Below, in pieces: positions 910 through 63,189 of a stretch of DNA of 64,000 bases. The notes under the pieces were generated by a model. The model was not told the origin of the DNA and searched no databases. It was given only the letters and a program-made list of their open reading frames with translations. The first letter of the stretch is position 1, and each line of letters begins with the position of its first letter. This DNA comes from Chiloscyllium plagiosum (lineage: Eukaryota), in the NCBI RefSeq assembly GCF_004010195.1, contig NC_057719.1, positions 42,431,820-42,495,819 on the forward strand. The letters run 5' to 3'. The translations under genes were made by a program, and so were the position numbers.

Positions 910-2175
910 CTAGTGAGAAATGCAACATCTTGCATTTACATAATGGTCTTAAAACATGTACATTGAGATATTTTTCTATCTCGGATGCAAAAGGAAATAA
1001 AATTGGCCTAAGGCAAATAATATTCAAAAATGCACATACATGAAAGTATTTAGTCTGAAATGAATTTGAGTTATTTTGTTGTAAATTATATCACCATGTT
1101 AAAGTCTCACAGATTCAACAATGCCAATTTCCAACATATTACGAAATCATAATTACATTATACATCTCACATCACTTCATACAATTAATTACGTCAATTG
1201 AAGTTTAATGACTATAAGCAAACATATGAGTATTATCTTGAGATAACAGAGATGAGTGACTGGTTCTTCTGCTTTGTTTTGGATCAATTAACAGGGAAAA
1301 AATAATATCAGCCACAACACTGGGTGCCTTTGCTCGTATTTAAAATCAGTTATTGAAAATCTATATGTTGGACCTTGGTTTAATAACTTGTGTCTCAAGT
1401 GTAGCGTTTCTCAAAGCACAGTAACCTTCTATGCTACATCAGAATCTTAGCTGAAATTGAGTATTCAAATCCTGATGTGCAGCTCAATTTCTCAATAAGT
1501 ACCATAAACCAAGCCAAATGGGCAGAGGCAATGACAAATATTCTGCAGCAATTTCAGTTTATCTCCACAAAAGCAAATACAGCCATTCAATAGTTTACAA
1601 AACTAGTCCCACTCATCATCACTGGGTAAATCACTCCACTGCGCAGAATTATAAGATAACAGTACCAGAGAATATTCAGTAGCAAGATGCTACTGAAGGT
1701 GATTCAAAGTCAGCAGCCTGGTCAGGTAATGGTGTGCACCATGGAAGAACTAAGAACAAAACAAAAACTAAAATAGATGGGTTTTGTAAAAGAAAACGTA
1801 GTAACTTGAAATATTTCTGCCTTATTAATCACTTAATGCGCAAGTACACAAAATATATTTTATTGAAAGTTTTTTTTAAGGCAAGTATAAAAATGAATGG
1901 AATACAGTGAACTGATCAAAACTAGTACACATAATTAGCAACATTTACAGTTATTTAGTATTATATATCTTCATGTTATGCCTGATGTGGAATTCTTTAC
2001 AAAGTAAGTGAATGATAAATAATTTGAAATGTCATAGTTTTACACTCTATCAAATATTTAGCTAAAGTTAATTCATTGCTAAAGACTTTCAAAGCCAAAT
2101 CAAGGAACTGCTTCCAGATCTTAGGTGTGAGTAGAAAAACATTGCAATTTGTTTATAACATGTCTATGATCATGT

Positions 2176-2486
2176 GGGCGGCACGGTGGCACAGTGGTTA
2201 GCACTGCTGCCTCACAGCGCCAGAGACCCGGGTTCAATTCCCGCCTCAGGCGACTGACTGTGTGGAGTTTGCACGTTCTCCCAGTGTCTGCGTGGGTTTC
2301 CTCCGGGTGCTCCGGTTTCCTCCCACAGTCCAAAGATGTGCAGGGTCAGGTGAATTGGCCATACTAAATTGCCCGTAGTGTTAGGTAAGGGGTAAATGTA
2401 GGGGTATGGGTGGGTTTCGCTTCGGCGGGTCCGTGTGGACTTGTTGGGCCGAAGGGCCTGTTTCCACACTGTAATCTAATCTAATC
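2176..2486 (+). mobile_element. tRNA-derived V-SINE (HE1-type), full-length young copy
   Basis: A box TGGCACAGTGG, B box GGTTCAATTCC, V-domain GTGTGGAGTTTGCACGTTCTCCC...CCTCCCACAGTCCAAAGA, CR1-like tail ending (CTAAT)n. Confidence 0.9.
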
Positions 2487-13489: not shown

Positions 13490-14780
13490 GTGGTTGGCAA
13501 GGCCAACGTTTGTTTCTCACCTCTAATTTATTGCCCTTCAGAAGGTGATGGTCAGCTGCTTTCATGAACCAGTGATGTCTGTCTAGTGTGGGTATACCTA
13601 CAATGTTGTTAGGAAGGGAGTTTATAGCCAAAGGATAGCAAAGGAATATAATATTGTTCGAAACCAGAATGATTGGAAGAAAATTTGCTGGCATGGGTGT
13701 TCACATGTATCTACGATCCTTGTGATTAGATTAGATTAGATTCCCGACAGTATGGAAATAGGCCCTTCGGCCCAACAAGTCCACACTGACACTCCGAAAA
13801 GTAACCCCCCTAGACCATTTCCCTATCCTATATTCACCCATGACTAATGCACCTAAGACTATGGGCAATTTAGCAAGGCCAATTCATCTGACCTGCACAT
13901 CTTTGAATTGTGGGAGGAAACCAGAGCACCCAGAGGAAACCCACGCAGACACGGGGAGAATGTGCAAACTCCACACAGACAGTCACCCAAGGCTGGAATC
14001 GAACCTGGGTCCCTGGCACTGTGAGGCAGCTGTGCTAATCAATGAGCCACTGTGCCACCCCATGGAAGTCACATATTTGGAAAGTGCTGTTAAAGTTGTC
14101 TTGGTAAAATACTGCCACGATGTGTCGATAGCGGAGGAAGTGGATACTTGTGGTGGTGAATGGAATGCCAAATAAGCAGGCTCATTGGAATGGTATTGAG
14201 CCTGAGTGGAACCACACGCATCCAGGTAAGTGGAGAGTATCCCATCACACTCCTGACTTTGTATCTTGCAGATAAGAGACAGACTTTGGGAATCAGGAGG
14301 TGAATTAAATCCACAGAAGTTTCTTATAGCCTGTTCTTGTAACCACTATTATTATGGCTGTTCGGTTCTTTTTCTGGTCACCTGCAATTTTCGGAATGTT
14401 ATATTAGGGGATGCAAAGATGATAATGTCATTAGTTATTAAGGGCGATGGTTAGATTCTCTCTTGTTGGAGATGGTCAATGCTTGACAATTGTTACTTGC
14501 CACATCTCAGTCAAAATCTGAACGTTGTCCAAGCCTTGCTGTGCATGGACGTGGACTCCTTCAGTATCTGAGAGCTTACAAATGGCACAGAACATCAAGT
14601 AAATATAAATGAACATCCATTCTGACCTTATGATGGAAAGAAGGCCATTGGTAAAGCAGCTTAAGATAGCTGGGCCTAGGACACTATCCTGAGGAATTCC
14701 AACAACCATGTTCTTGGACCAAAGGGATTGGATACCAAGGATCACAACCAATTTCCTTTGGGTTGGATATGACTGCAACA
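13490..14780 (-). mobile_element. Second LINE family (CR1/L2 group), RT 3' part, with a nested HE1 SINE at ~13726-14061 (minus)
   Basis: GIPQDSVLGPAILSCF motif; 3' end GGCAATAAAT; related pieces at ~11596-11920 and ~35680-35950. Confidence 0.75.
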
Positions 14781-25027: not shown

Positions 25028-25681
25028 CTGCAACACAGCAAACAAAAACCAGCAAGTGTCCATCAGAAAACAAACATAGCCCCAATACATTCAAAATTTT
25101 ACAGACAGAATACAATTGCTACAGAAAGATTTATTTTACACAGTATTAATAACTACACAGAAGGCATTACTAGCCTACTTCTCCTCTCAATTTGTAGGTT
25201 TGTATGGGCATTTTAAAAGGCTATGCACCGGAATTTCCAAATCACATTGGACAGTCACTGTATTTAAATTTGTGCCTTGTAAAAAATATCCTGATGATCA
25301 ATGGATAATCTTACACTTACATTAAAATCCATCTGCTAGTCATTCCCATTCACCTAATCTATCAATATCCTGTTATAATTTTATACTGTAGTCAACAGAG
25401 TCTTCAATGCTGCCCAATTTTGTGTCATCGGCAAATTTGGATATTTGGCATTTGATGCCATTATCCAAGTCATAAACAGATATTGTGGATAATTGAGGCT
25501 CCAATACAGATCCCTATAGGGCATTAGTGACACTAGTCACTTGACAGCCACAAGAAGAGGGTGTTGGTTGATTGGTTGGGCCATTATTGGTGATCTGCTG
25601 CAACTCCATGCCACTGATGGCTCAGTCAATCAGCACCCTCTGCTCACACTGCACAAAATGCCAGCCCTTTGTTCAACTAGG

Positions 25682-25820
25682 AGAAAGTGGGATCTGCAGA
25701 TGCTGGAGAGCAGAGTCGAGAGTTTGTTGCTGGAAAAGCACAGCAGGTCAGGCAGCATCCAAGGAGCAGGAGAATCAATGTTTCGGGCCAGCGCCCTTCA
25801 TCAGGCTCTGATGAAGGCCC
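25682..25820 (-). mobile_element. Penelope-like terminal repeat fragment with a decayed hammerhead core
   Basis: Homologous to 32395-32520; minus strand CTGATGAAGGGC..GCCCGAAACATT; followed by a short inverted CTGATGAAGG. Confidence 0.7.
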
Positions 25821-32130: not shown

Positions 32131-32394
32131 GCATATTTGTCCTATGATTTGAATCCTGTGTTGTACCTTGACTAGATTATCACCTCACTTTTAGGTATAT
32201 TTTATGCAGCTCCTTGCATGTTCTTTTGCACTTCCCATTGGACCAAGGTTGATCCTCTGCTTTGATAATAACGTAGATTGAGAGATATATCAGGCCATGA
32301 AATTACAGCTTGAGTAAATATAATTTTACTCTTGCTCATGGCCCATAGCCCCTCAGTGATGCCCAGTTGTGATGCTTGTATTAAATCCATACGA

Positions 32395-32621
32395 GAGAAA
32401 GTGAGGGCTGCAGATGCTGGAGATCAGAGCTGAAAATGTGTTGCTGGAAAAGCGCAGCAGGTCAGGCAGCATCCAAGGAACAGAAGAATCGACGTTTCGG
32501 GCATAAGCCCTTCTTCAGGAAGAAGGGCTTATTCCTGAAGGGCTTATGCCCGAAACGTTGATTCTCCTGTTCCTTGGATGCTGCCTGACCTGCTGCGCTT
32601 TTCCAGCAACACATTTTCAGC
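32395..32621. mobile_element. Palindromic Penelope-like terminal insertion with 14-bp TSD
   Basis: TTAAATCCATACGA at 32381-32394 and 32622-32635; inverted arms 32428-32513 and 32537-32622. Confidence 0.85.
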
Positions 32622-33625
32622 TTAAATCCATACGAATTTTGTACAGTGGCAGTGCCACACAACATGGAGCGTGCAGAAAGGATCCCATCCCCAAAAGGAC
32701 TTTTCAATCGTCATTTCTATCAATAATGTCATCAACAAATGCATCTGCAACAGATGAATTTGGTGAAAAAAAAAAGTTGAATGCAAGTAGGTTTATTCAC
32801 CCACCTGCCACAGACCTAGTCAGATAAACACATCCACGAGGACTCAGCCAGCTCTGCCAGTGCTGGTGATACTGAAACTCACTCAGTGGATGGATGTTAA
32901 GTTGTGTTAGTGAGAAATGAGAAGAATGGTTTTGGAGGAAAGTATACAATCAGTTACAGAAGTTTTAGTGATTCTGCCTGTCAAGCATCAAAGAGATTGA
33001 AGAAAATCAATAAAAGAAGTTGCGCAATGGTGATGCAAGTGTGAAACCTGAGATTTAAAGCCTTAGCGCATCTACCCCACTGGTATTTTGAAGAAAAGGA
33101 AGGGAACACTCTTCCCATTATGGTAACTAACACTTCCCAAGGTCATCATTCCATCTGATATTGCTGCACGTGGGGCCTTGCTGCATGCAAATTGGCAACA
33201 ACAGGAAGTGCACTTCCAAAATGTACACTGATCAGCTCTATTGCATACTGAAGCAGTCTAAGGGCGTGAAAGGTGCTGTATAAATCCAAAGCTATCTTAA
33301 AGTTACAAAATCTCAAACAAAATATTAACCTTTATTCCTCTCACCTCACACATTCACAAAAGAAGCAGAAGCTTACAAATTAACTCGTGAGAAACTAGAT
33401 GGGTGTTTAATTTATTTAAGTGTATTTCTTGGTCTATTTTAATTCACTTGTTACAATTATGGTATTATATCTTAGTAATGCTTTCAGTAATTATCAGCAG
33501 TTAGCAACAACAGTAATTTCTAATCTATGGGGTACTATTCCGATATAATCAAAAATGTCATTCCGCTAAATAATGAAAGTTATAATATATTTGGTGTTTG
33601 CGTATATGCAATTAAGACATCCTAC

Positions 33626-42086: not shown

Positions 42087-42294
42087 CTAACGGAAAGATA
42101 AAATTAGCTTACACTTCCAAATATCAGACTTTCACTTGATCTCTACTTCCAGGCATAATTATAAATACAACTCTGATAACACAACACTCACTTCCCATCT
42201 CCAACTTCATATTTCATCTTTTGGAAAGGCAGGATGTTCAATGAAAAAGCCCACTTAGCTAAGGGATTTGTGGGGTAGGCAAAATGGAGAAATA

Positions 42295-42388
42295 GGCCTG
42301 AAGAAGGGCTTATGCCCGAAACGTCGATTCTCCTGTTCCCTGGATGGTGCCTGACCTGCTGCGCTTTTCCAGCAACACATTTTCAGCC
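42295..42388 (+). mobile_element. 94-bp Penelope-derived mini-insertion with intact minimal hammerhead core, 15-bp TSD
   Basis: CAAAATGGAGAAATA at 42280-42294 and 42389-42403; CTGAAGA-A-GGGC TTAT GCCC-GAAAC-GTC at 42298-42325. Confidence 0.85.
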
Positions 42389-42677
42389 CAAAATGGAGAA
42401 ATATAACATTGATCACTGGGTGAGTCAATCAAAGATGGTGCACCTTTCACCAATCAACTTAACAGAAGTATTGGTTGACACAGCAGTTATGGCATGTGGA
42501 ACACAAAGTAGTCTTTGACATGGAAGGGAATGTAAAAATGAAAAAAAGAGTTTAAGAATAGGCGTCTAATAATCTGACAGTAGAACATATTTTCAGTTCC
42601 AGTAATCTTACTAGATTTACAATTTTAATACAGACATAAAATACACGGAGATGATATGGGATGAAAAATAACAGTGT

Positions 42678-42997
42678 GGGCGGCATGGTGGCACAGTGTT
42701 TAGCACTGCTGCCTCACAGCGCCAGAGACCTGGGTTTAATTCCCACCTCAAGCGACTGACTGTGTGGAGTTTTCACATTCTCCCCGTGTCTGCGTGGGTT
42801 TCCTCTGGGTCCTCTGGTTTCCTCCCACAGTCCAAAAATGTGCAGGTTAGGTGAATTGGCCATGCTAAATTGCCAGTAGTGTTAGGTGCAGGGGAAAATG
42901 TAGGGGAATGGGTCTGAGTGGTGCTCTTCAGCGGGTCGGTGTGGACTTGTTGGGCCGAAGGGCCTGTTTCCACACTAAGTAATCTAAGTAATCTAAT
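42678..42997 (+). mobile_element. HE1-type V-SINE, full length
   Basis: GGGCGGCATGGTGGCACAGTG head, V-domain, AGTAATCTA tail. Confidence 0.9.
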
Positions 42998-46605: not shown

Positions 46606-47197
46606 AATAGAATTTTTAATAGAGTCCCAACAGAGTGGAAACAGGCCCTTTGGCCCAACAAGTCCACACCGACCCTCCGAAGAGTAACCCACCCAAACCC
46701 ATTCCGCTACCCTATTACTCTACATTTACTCCTGACTAATACACCTAACCCAAGTTAAAAATCACACAACAGCAGGTTATAGTCCAACAGGTTTAATTGG
46801 AAGCACACTAGCTTTCGGAGCGCCGCTCCTTCATGCCTGATGAACAACCACCTGATGAAGGAGCGTCGCTCCGAAAGCTAGTGTGCTTCCAATTAAACCT
46901 GTTGGACTATAACCTGCTGTTGTGTGATTTTTAACTTTGTACACCCCAGTCCAACACCGGCATCTCCGAATCATGACACCTAACCTACACATTCCCGGGC
47001 AATTTAGCATGGGCAATTCACCTAACCTGCACATCTTTGGATTGTGGGAGGAAACTGGAGCACCCAGAGGAAACTTACACAGACACAGGGAGAATGTGCA
47101 AATTCCACACAGACAGTTGCCAGAGGCTGGAATCAAACCCAGGTCCCTGGTACTGTGAGGCATCTGTGCTAACCACTGAGTCACTGTGCTGCCCCAC
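46606..47197 (-). mobile_element. HE1-type V-SINE interrupted by a palindromic PLE insertion
   Basis: SINE sequence resumes exactly after the ACACCTAACC duplication. Confidence 0.88.
46751..46975 (+). mobile_element. Palindromic Penelope-like insertion (second family) with minimal hammerhead core, 10-bp TSD
   Basis: ACACCTAACC at 46741-46750 and 46976-46985; 83-bp arms 46752-46834 and 46855-46937 with 1 mismatch; CAC-CTGATGA-A-GGAGC GTC GCTCC-GAAAG-CTA-GTG at 46849-46883. Confidence 0.85.
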
Positions 47198-59473: not shown

Positions 59474-60065
59474 AGGAGAAAAAGTGAGGAATGCAGAGGC
59501 TGGAGAGTCAAAGTCGAAAACTGTGGTACTGAAAAAGCACAGCAGATCAGGCAGCTTCCAAGGAGCAGGAGAGTCGACGTTTTGGGCTTAAGCCCTTTAT
59601 CAGGAATATTGGTAATGTGTTGGGGGTGGGGTACTGAGAGATAAATAGGGAAGTGGGGCTGGAGCTGGGGTGGGGGAGGTACTGGGAAGGCAATAGGTGG
59701 ATGCAAATGGAGGGTATTTGTGATAGATCAGTGGGGAGGGTGCAGCGGAGAGGTGAGAAGGAAGATGGACAGGTGGGACAAGTCAAAAGGGCGGTGTGAG
59801 GTCGGATCTGTGATGAAGTGGGGGGAGGGGAGATTTGGAAACTAGTGAAGTTGATGTTGATGCTGTGTGGTTGAACAGTCCCAAGGCAGATGAAGCGTTC
59901 TTCCTCCAGTGTTGGGTGGCTTGGATTTGGTGGTGGAGGAGGCCCAGAACTTGCATGTCCTTGGTGGAGCGGGAGGGGGAGTTGGAGTTGAAGCAGTTGG
60001 CCACAGGGTAGTGGGGTTGTTTGGTGCGTGTGACCAAGAGATGTTCCCTGAAACACTCTGCAGGT
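59474..60065 (-). mobile_element. Penelope-like element 3' fragment (GIY-YIG C-terminus and terminal repeat of the 42295/62610 family)
   Basis: PVANCFNS..MQVLGL, LEEERFICLGTVQPHSININFTSF; decayed core CTGATAAAGGGCTTAAGCCCAAAACGTC. Confidence 0.8.
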
Positions 60066-62515: not shown

Positions 62516-62609
62516 CAACTACATGTACCATCTGTGAGATGCACAGCAGAAATTCACCAAGGCTCCACCGATGTATTTTCAAAAGCCATGGCCTGTACTG
62601 TTGCAAAGG

Positions 62610-62700
62610 TCTGAAGAAGGGCTCATGCCCGAAACGTCGATTCTCCTACTCCTTGGATGCTGCCTGACCTGCTGCGCTTTTCCAGCAACACATTTTCAGC
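62610..62700 (+). mobile_element. 91-bp Penelope-derived mini-insertion with intact minimal hammerhead core, 13-bp TSD
   Basis: ACTGTTGCAAAGG at 62597-62609 and 62701-62713; CTGAAGA-A-GGGC TCAT GCCC-GAAAC-GTC at 62611-62638. Confidence 0.85.
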
Positions 62701-63189
62701 ACTGTTGCAAAGGATCAGGATAGCAGATACATGGGAACACCACCACTTGCAAGTTCCTTTTCAAGCCATACAGTACCTTGACTTGGAAATGTATCCTATT
62801 ACTGCACTGACTGGGTGAATGGCTTCCACCCATTCCTAAATTTTCCACATGCCTGGTTAAGTACATTCCACAACACACAAGATACAAGGTACCTGACACC
62901 ATCCAAGACAAAGCAGCCTGGTTGACTGACAGCCAATCCATTACCATAAGTATTCATTCCCTTTATGACTTCTACAGGAGCAGCAATTATTACAATCTAC
63001 AAAATTCACTGACAGCAACACACCAAGTCATCTTCAATAGCACTTTCGAAATCTGTGATCCAATTAGAGCGACCTACACCAGGGATTACAGCAAGTCAAG
63101 AGGGGTCTCCCCACAACCTGCTCAGGACAGCCATATTGATAACGATATCCAGAGTAGGACAGAAAGGAATAGTGTACAAACATAGAAAA

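What the first reader, a model, noticed from the sequence alone, without database searches (positions are those of the whole stretch)
42280..42403. ~90-bp hammerhead-only mini-retroelements with long TSDs and a shared end point
Seen: 42295-42388 and 62610-62700 are near-identical 91-94 bp inserts, each flanked by a perfect 13-15 bp TSD. Each starts 1-3 nt before CTGAAGA and ends at or within 1 nt of ...ACATTTTCAGC. The palindromic insert at 32395-32621 ends at the same nucleotide, although the parental terminal repeat continues further (32395-32427). The insert is essentially CUGANGA-A-stemII(GGGC/GCCC)-GAAAC-GUC plus ~60 nt. Established: Penelope-like elements carry minimal hammerhead ribozymes in their terminal repeats, and an extra A after A9 is tolerated (as in the CChMVd plus-strand hammerhead). 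Inference: this is a young, non-autonomous, ribozyme-bearing mobile unit (retrozyme-like) mobilised by a Penelope RT/GIY-YIG with a fixed priming site. Minimal hammerheads in PLEs are known in general; I cannot tell whether this mini-element class has been described in sharks.
Basis: partly seen in the sequence, partly recalled or inferred. Interest (0 to 1): 0.75.

Follow-up and report, generated by a model that had tools for sequence, protein, structure and literature searches.

The report
Run-off stubs of a Penelope retroelement
The two 91-94-base inserts are real jumping-gene insertions, but they are stubs of an abundant full-size Penelope-like retrotransposon rather than a separate ribozyme element, likely made when its copying enzyme starts about 90-125 bases inside the RNA and runs off the RNA's front end.

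Summary
Observation confirmed: the TSDs are exact (15, 13, 14 bp), and a related organism has the empty site. The inserts match the hammerhead-bearing terminal repeat of an autonomous Neptune-type Penelope-like element (RT + GIY-YIG). Numbering from the first C of CUGAAGA as +1, there are two 3' ends, +90 and +124: the known 34-nt PLE tail. Of 43 head-to-head inserts, 39 carry one of each end. Stubs form no lineage apart from long copies. The two window copies lack the 5' strand of helix I and span the cut site, so they are not retrozyme monomers. Shown here: stubs and ORF-bearing copies start in the same zone, peaking at -4. In 15 of 30 ORF-start loci an ORF piece joins a terminal stub directly, 8 inside one TSD. 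Likely mechanism: internal priming near the RNA's 5' end, run-off, then integration or a template jump. The RNA start itself is not shown (inconclusive). The scan noted such stubs, and the 5' clustering, before on other pieces of this genome.

The parts
42280..42294 (+). left TSD (15 bp)
   Evidence: exact repeat; single copy at the empty site in organism D
42295..42388 (+). solo stub: element positions -1..+90 plus 2 untemplated 5' bases and 1 extra 3' base
   Evidence: identical over 86 nt to the end of long copy L004
42298..42325 (+). minimal type I hammerhead core (CUGANGA, extra A, 4-bp helix II, GAAAC-GUC); predicted cut after 42325; 5' strand of helix I absent in this copy
   Evidence: sequence; helix I check; no Rfam hit
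42389..42403 (+). right TSD (15 bp)
62597..62609 (+). left TSD (13 bp), inside an old interspersed repeat
62610..62700 (+). solo stub +1..+90 with one untemplated 5' base; 5' strand of helix I absent
62701..62713 (+). right TSD (13 bp)
32381..32394 (+). left TSD (14 bp) of the head-to-head insert
32395..32521 (-). tailed arm (-3..+124); the 34-nt tail is 32395-32428
32522..32621 (+). junction (about 32522-32536) and short arm (+6..+90)
32622..32635 (+). right TSD (14 bp)
25681..25805 (-). older (85%) tailed stub of a related subfamily
59476..60065 (-). older (83%) 5'-truncated long copy, about 460 nt of upstream element sequence plus tail

Best explanation
The inserts are short copies of the hammerhead-bearing end of an autonomous Neptune-type Penelope-like retrotransposon, likely made when its reverse transcriptase primes at one of two internal sites (+90 or +124) near the front of the element's RNA and runs off the RNA's 5' end, which is inferred to lie at about -4. 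Shown: element anatomy (hammerhead, two end points, ATG at about +162, then RT and GIY-YIG), the two 3' ends, TSDs, the empty site, a 5' zone shared by stubs and ORF-bearing copies, stub-to-ORF joints inside one TSD, and one tail per inverted pair. Taken from Frangieh 2024 (a Poseidon element in vitro): nicking and extension of both strands, internal priming at two sites, uncleaved RNA as template, a predicted dimer. Inferred: the -4 zone is a transcription start. The run-off cDNA has three fates. It is joined to the target by microhomology (solo stub), it meets the cDNA primed from the opposite nick (head-to-head palindrome, one arm tailed), or it jumps to another place on element RNA (partial tandem). 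The two window stubs are predicted to be dead ends and not to self-cleave, because they lack helix I.
For: Long copies with RT end in the same sequence (L006, L018). L097 has a 749-aa open frame with RVT_1 (E 1.2e-8) and GIY-YIG (E 2.9e-4, just under the curated cut-off) and a C-x4-C-x2-C linker. 3' ends of 29 solo stubs: 18 at +86..+92, 11 at +121..+130. Inverted pairs: 39 of 43 short+tail, 4 short/short, 0 tail/tail; TSD mode 14-16 bp, none found in 10 of 43. 5' ends: of 76 arms not selected on upstream sequence (37 from 0.95 Mb of random stretches plus the window, 39 from loci that needed an exact +1..+21), 47 start within -6..+6 and 12 extend far upstream; the mode is -4 (28 of 180 arms). 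Genome-wide exact counts: core 45,401; still matching at -5 19,738; at -12 8,355. Of 30 ORF-start loci, 10 begin at -4..+18, 4 have upstream pLTR, and 15 join an ORF piece (exit about +335..+620) straight to a second terminal stub; 14 of those start at -12..+6, and 8 lie inside one 9-17-bp TSD. The base before A(-4) is G in 64 of 100 listed non-C junctions, against 26% expected (counted by eye; test); 4,426 genome-wide. The sequence there fits an initiator, TCA+1TTCC (consensus recalled). D. virilis Penelope starts in the upstream pLTR from an internal promoter (PMC2377424, passages). Stubs are not a clade.
Against: No RNA start was observed: one search lists no pile-up of molecule starts, reads lie on both strands, and 93% run on into unlike sequence. 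The 5' ends spread over about 20 nt (-12..+10) and are not sharp; part of the loss between -5 and -12 may be subfamily variation. The G excess is not specific to -4: junctions at -1 are also about 63% G by eye. Most of those are explained by the inverted partner, but roughly half of about 30 non-element junctions are still G. In several solo stubs the G lies inside the TSD. 17 of 76 arms had no TSD or partner that my script found. The ORF-joined loci came from an ORF-start query, so their share is inflated; only 1 of 76 unbiased arms was jump-joined, and that one to a short element piece. The tree has 86 columns, 3 starred branches and an unsettled bootstrap. The in vitro data are from another PLE clade.
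Confidence: 0.68

Rival explanations
1. Ordinary 5' truncation with a hot spot: the RT primes in the downstream pLTR of a long transcript and stalls at the hammerhead, or at protein bound there, so the stubs are just the shortest truncated copies.
For: PLE copies are known to be heavily 5'-truncated (PMC8557442, passages), and solo minimal hammerheads were already ascribed to truncated PLEs (PMC4209133, sections read). 12 of 76 arms run on colinearly upstream. The 5' ends are spread, and the G signal is not specific to -4.
Against: The peak is at the 5' edge of helix I, after every helix of the motif has been copied; a structural stall would be expected at the 3' edge (inference). ORF-bearing copies begin in the same zone (10 of 30). 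Loss levels off beyond -12: 18% at -12 by count against 16% long arms.
Confidence: 0.19
2. One reading: a non-autonomous, ribozyme-bearing mini-element that is transcribed and mobilised in its own right, retrozyme-like or SINE-like. If the promoter is internal, a tailed stub that starts at -4 could give daughters that look like run-off products.
For: Thousands of solo stubs are likely (2 in 0.95 Mb of random sequence; 3 of 39 arms). An internal promoter is reported for D. virilis Penelope. Non-autonomous PLE derivatives and retrozyme monomers are known. Short tandem arrays of the core exist.
Against: No clustering of stubs and no private allele at the 14 variable columns; stubs occur in both subfamilies beside long copies. 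5' ends are heterogeneous. Window copies lack helix I and span the cut site, and they are not tandem. The Anolis enzyme needs RNA beyond the priming sites (first 172 nt of the ORF; PMC11167929), which stubs would lack (by analogy).
Confidence: 0.1
3. [quoted passage not shown]
For: The boundary lies at the ribozyme. In D. virilis an intron ends at the 5' edge of helix I (PMC4209133).
Against: Cleavage would give starts at +29: 2 of 180. There is no AG before -4 and no shared upstream exon; upstream flanks are heterogeneous.
Confidence: 0.03

Closest known systems
Endonuclease-positive Penelope-like elements, Neptune type: pLTR, 30-40-bp tail, inverted 5'-truncated copy (Craig 2021 PMC8557442; Arkhipova 2013 PMC3846280; Schostak 2008 PMC2377424; passages seen)
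   Same: RT plus C-terminal GIY-YIG with a CX2-5CxxC linker; hammerhead in the pLTR; a 34-nt tail on one end only; head-to-head inversions; TSDs; partial tandems.
   Different: Most copies here are only the first 90-130 nt of the RNA, with 5' ends clustered at the front of the hammerhead. TSDs are longer (mode 14-16 bp against 8-10 bp in the rotifer paper). I found no description of run-off plus jump in my searches.
Poseidon of Anolis carolinensis, PAc (Frangieh 2024, PMC11167929; parts 1-3 of 4 read; a word search of its supplements gave no hits)
   Same: Two internal RT start sites bracketing the tail, about 110-150 nt past the hammerhead; both strands extended; uncleaved RNA used.
   Different: Different clade. 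In PAc the ATG lies at helix II, so the priming sites are inside the ORF; here the ATG is at about +162, downstream of both sites. That paper does not map the 5' ends of insertions in the text I read.
Minimal hammerheads (min-HHR) of metazoan PLEs (Cervera and de la Pena 2014, PMC4209133; parts 1-2 of 4 read)
   Same: No loop 3, palindromic 15.2-16.2, extra base between 9 and 10.1, mostly solo copies ascribed to truncated PLEs.
   Different: Helix II is 4 bp here; about 45,000 exact copies of one 21-mer against thousands in the genomes surveyed; the window copies lack half of helix I.
Non-LTR retrozymes of animals (PMC7229834, passages; bioRxiv 10.64898/2026.07.22.740005, part 1 and passages)
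   Same: Type I hammerhead, PLE origin, no coding capacity, long TSDs.
   Different: Retrozymes are tandem repeats with complete hammerheads that yield monomeric and circular RNA. These stubs are solo or inverted, incomplete in the window, and not a lineage of their own.

Membership tests
EN+ Penelope-like element (parent) | PLE-type RT with C-terminal GIY-YIG in one frame | tested here: met
   L097, 749 aa: RVT_1 above cut-off, GIY-YIG 21.5 bits against a 22.6 cut-off; L097 belongs to a sister subfamily; the window's subfamily is tied to the RT by L006, L018 and L095
EN+ Penelope-like element (parent) | pLTR / partial tandem with hammerhead | tested here: met
   L205, L211, L212, L225
EN+ Penelope-like element (parent) | 30-40-bp tail at one end; inverted 5' copy | tested here: met
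   ends +90/+124; 39 of 43 inverted pairs mixed
Neptune clade | CX2-5CxxC linker before the endonuclease (shared with Nematis) | tested here: met
   C-x4-C-x2-C in P0001; definition from PMC8557442
Neptune clade | RT phylogeny placing it in Neptune rather than Nematis | not tested
   no reference RT tree built; 'Neptune in vertebrates' is from PMC4209133 and recall
Non-LTR retrozyme | tandem units each with a complete type I hammerhead | tested here: not met
   window copies are solo or inverted and lack the helix I 5' strand; only 134 short core tandems genome-wide with one pattern
Non-LTR retrozyme | own lineage, distinct from autonomous copies | tested here: not met
   19 changes against 17.9 shuffled; permutation p 0.115; weak power (86 columns)
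Non-LTR retrozyme | self-cleavage and circular RNA | not testable with these tools
   needs in vitro cleavage and RNase R / divergent RT-PCR
min-HHR | core CUGANGA / GAAA / UH, extra base after A9, palindromic helix III | tested here: met
   sequence; definition
min-HHR | helix I of 4-5 bp | tested here: not met
   absent in both window stubs; present in copies reaching -4 (4 bp in the L097 subfamily, 3 bp plus a U-U mismatch in the window's subfamily)
Run-off (strong-stop-like) product | capped RNA start at the 5' boundary | tested here: inconclusive
   G excess at -4 but also at -1; no start pile-up in RNA reads

The most novel reading that the evidence does not exclude
Penelope-like elements replicate through a strong-stop-like intermediate. 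The enzyme primes at the copy of the start site near the RNA's 5' end, runs off the cap, and reaches the rest of the element by a template jump, so pseudo-LTRs, partial tandems, head-to-head palindromes and 90-bp stubs are all outcomes of one step. In the boldest form, hammerhead cleavage in the downstream repeat leaves a 32-nt overlap that accepts the jump, as the R region does in retroviruses. This would answer how pseudo-LTRs are regenerated and what the ribozyme is for.
Probability: 0.22. Interest if true: 0.78.

Novelty: new member of a known kind. Interest (0 to 1): 0.38.

Why it matters
As a repeat class this is ordinary: ends of a Penelope-like element. Its value is as a natural record of mechanism. 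Tens of thousands of young junctions in one genome mark both RT start sites and, probably, the RNA's 5' end. They extend the in vitro result for Anolis Poseidon to a Neptune-type element in vivo, and they show that the two arms of a palindrome use different start sites. Schostak 2008 wrote that no obvious mechanism regenerates pseudo-LTRs other than tandem formation; the stub-to-ORF joints inside single TSDs give a directly testable candidate. It also cautions that solo minimal hammerheads in vertebrate genomes should not be counted as retrozymes or as active ribozymes.

Tried and rejected
Rfam scan of the window: 0 hits. RNA evidence: no listed holder is on record as RNA. Raw single-cell poly(A) run X21 (organism C, about 2% of the run read) gave 2,103 reads on both strands, mostly embedded copies, with loose ends at -4 and +124..+127 and no start pile-up; X22 gave no reads; X1 and X3 are contigs and cannot show starts. 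So the RNA start could not be tested. Idea that jumps land on the ribozyme cut site: 134 short tandems genome-wide; in the 100 listed, the upstream copy ends from about +19 to +49 with a modest mode near +31 (lengths tallied by eye; a few rows are units of one array), and a 5-nt repeat at +29..+33 confounds the test: inconclusive. Cap-G control at -1 did not show specificity. No shared sequence after the tail among 114 tailed hits in the first 170 loci, apart from one locus held twice; the continuation was found only by walking upstream from the RT. MFE folding does not give the hammerhead fold, as expected for a min-HHR. L095's 836-aa frame is an internal tandem repeat, not an intact ORF. Literature searches for PLE + shark + Neptune and PLE + strong-stop + pLTR gave 0 papers; searches listed none on this. 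Luense et al. 2017 on dimeric PLE hammerheads (recalled) was not in the listing and was not read. Supplements of the 2026 bioRxiv preprint were not seen and may list shark families.

Full report
Coordinates. +1 is the first C of CUGAAGA (window 42298); there is no zero.

1. Observation. All three inserts and their TSDs are as described: 94 bp in a 15-bp TSD, 91 bp in a 13-bp TSD, and a 227-bp palindrome in a 14-bp TSD. The two stubs are 94.4% alike. Contigs of organism D (X15, X17; one study) lack the 42280 insert with exactly one TSD copy left, and organism C carries it. The 62610 insert interrupts an old repeat; 14 of 14 paralogues examined lack it. The hammerhead core with its extra A is there; Rfam does not score it. 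The extra base between 9 and 10.1 is a published feature of PLE minimal hammerheads (PMC4209133).

2. Parent element. A search of the own genome with the 90-mer scored 40 of 1,043 candidates. Some hits continue upstream into RT sequence (L006, L018). That RT is abundant (150 scored of 27,999 candidates). L097 holds a 749-aa frame with RT, a C-x4-C-x2-C linker and GIY-YIG, which fits Neptune or Nematis by the definition in PMC8557442. Walking upstream gave the front of the element: hammerhead, +90, +124, then an ATG at about +162 that opens the ORF. The same block recurs about 190 nt after the stop, forming the pLTR. The 21-mer +1..+21 occurs 45,401 times exactly. Arms at least 90% alike occur 49 times in 0.95 Mb of sampled sequence, about 180,000 genome-wide by extrapolation.

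3. 3' ends. There are two. Among 29 solo stubs with a TSD (all loci held), 18 end at +86..+92 and 11 at +121..+130. Among 43 head-to-head pairs, 39 have one short and one tailed arm, 4 are short/short and none is tail/tail. This is the PLE 'tail' (PMC8557442, PMC3846280, PMC2377424; passages). Frangieh 2024 showed in vitro that it lies between two internal RT start sites, with both DNA strands extended and uncleaved RNA as template (PMC11167929).

4. 5' ends. Of 76 arms not chosen on upstream sequence (edge and N-flanked arms dropped), 47 start within -6..+6, 12 run far upstream, 39 have an inverted partner, 7 are solo stubs with a TSD, 1 is jump-joined and 17 are unresolved. The mode is -4 (28 of 180), and only 2 of 180 start at the cut site (+29). 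Genome-wide, 19,738 core copies still match at -5 and 8,355 at -12. Copies that continue into the ORF begin in the same zone (10 of 30 loci at -4..+18; 4 of 30 have upstream pLTR; the rest are cut further in or hidden by N). Position -4 is the A of an initiator-like TCATTCC (consensus recalled) and the first base of helix I. The base before it is G in 64 of 100 listed non-C junctions, against 26% expected, although the element has C there. An untemplated G marks capped ends in 5'-end sequencing (PMC6280765, passages) and was read so for a LINE (PMC3510499, passage). Against this: junctions at -1 are also G-rich, the G often lies within the TSD, and RNA reads showed no start pile-up. The RNA start is thus likely, not shown.

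5. Jumps. In 15 of 30 ORF-start loci the ORF breaks off at a variable point (about +335 to +620) and is joined directly to a terminal stub; 14 of these stubs start at -12..+6, and 8 composites sit in one TSD of 9-17 bp. A further 134 shorter tandems of this kind were counted with one pattern. Since cDNA grows from +90/+124 towards -4, these read as a cDNA that reached the 5' boundary and then went on at another place of element RNA. The loci were found by an ORF-start query, so their frequency is not general.

6. A family of its own? No sign. For 23 stubs and 48 long or ORF-bearing copies over 86 nt, the label changes 19 times on the tree (shuffled mean 17.9; 411 of 500 shuffles as low). Within-stub identity exceeds stub-to-long identity by 0.007 (p 0.115). 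All 14 variable columns show the same alleles in both classes, and a starred subfamily clade holds 7 long copies and 2 stubs. The 42295 stub is identical to the end of long copy L004. The power is limited. Both window stubs lack the helix I 5' strand, so they are predicted to be inactive. They are not tandem and their ends are not at the cut site, so they fail the retrozyme definition (PMC7229834; 2026 preprint).

7. Mechanism. Most likely (0.68): the element's protein nicks both strands about 14-16 bp apart and primes at +90 or +124 near the RNA's front. The cDNA runs off at about -4 and is then joined to the target (solo stub), to the opposite cDNA (palindrome) or to another RNA position (partial tandem). 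Rivals: a stall at the hammerhead in the downstream pLTR (0.19); stubs re-mobilised from an internal promoter (0.10); an end set by cleavage or splicing (0.03). Arkhipova 2013 proposed self-priming on an antisense template for head-to-head junctions; the one-tail-per-pair rule fits twin priming at two sites more simply (inference).

8. Novelty. The object is a new member of a known kind. My searches found no paper on sharks or on a run-off-and-jump route, but the library lacks most subscription papers and Repbase reports. The scan's own notes, read after my analysis, report such stubs and the 5' clustering on other pieces of this genome; they are not independent support. What this follow-up contributes beyond the short note texts I could see is the element's front end with the ORF start, the stub-to-ORF joints in single TSDs, the tail asymmetry count, the junction-G test with its failed control, and the empty orthologous site. 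Interest 0.38; the bold reading (probability 0.22) would merit 0.78.

Noticed in passing
G000:C7:77281155-77281364 (also C17:24349671, C18:66447530, C11:43302515): Head-to-tail arrays of 33-44-nt units made of the hammerhead core alone (at least five 40-nt units on C7, with a changed GAAA box); possible seeds of retrozyme-like satellites.
   Followed up: no
L095:2664-5171 (-): An RT segment of about 43 codons repeated in frame many times inside one copy, giving an 836-aa open frame; repeated template slippage or an assembly artefact.
   Followed up: no
L003:1360-1625: A tailed stub lies, in the same orientation and with no TSD seen, inside the GIY-YIG region of what looks like a different Penelope family; nested insertion or a jump between families.
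   Followed up: no
L211, L188, L047 (ORF 5' part): The ORF has a conserved N-terminal block followed by a variable Ala/Thr/Pro-rich repeat linker before the RT.
   Followed up: partly
L216, L228, L230: Three independent loci leave the ORF at about +335, where the element holds a short match to the G-plus-start junction; a microhomology-guided jump hot spot.
   Followed up: partly
window 2173-2344, 13848-14062, 42675-42976, 46997-47196 and others: Many copies of a repeat with a tRNA-like head (families D1, D5, D9); resembles shark SINEs by recall only.
   Followed up: no
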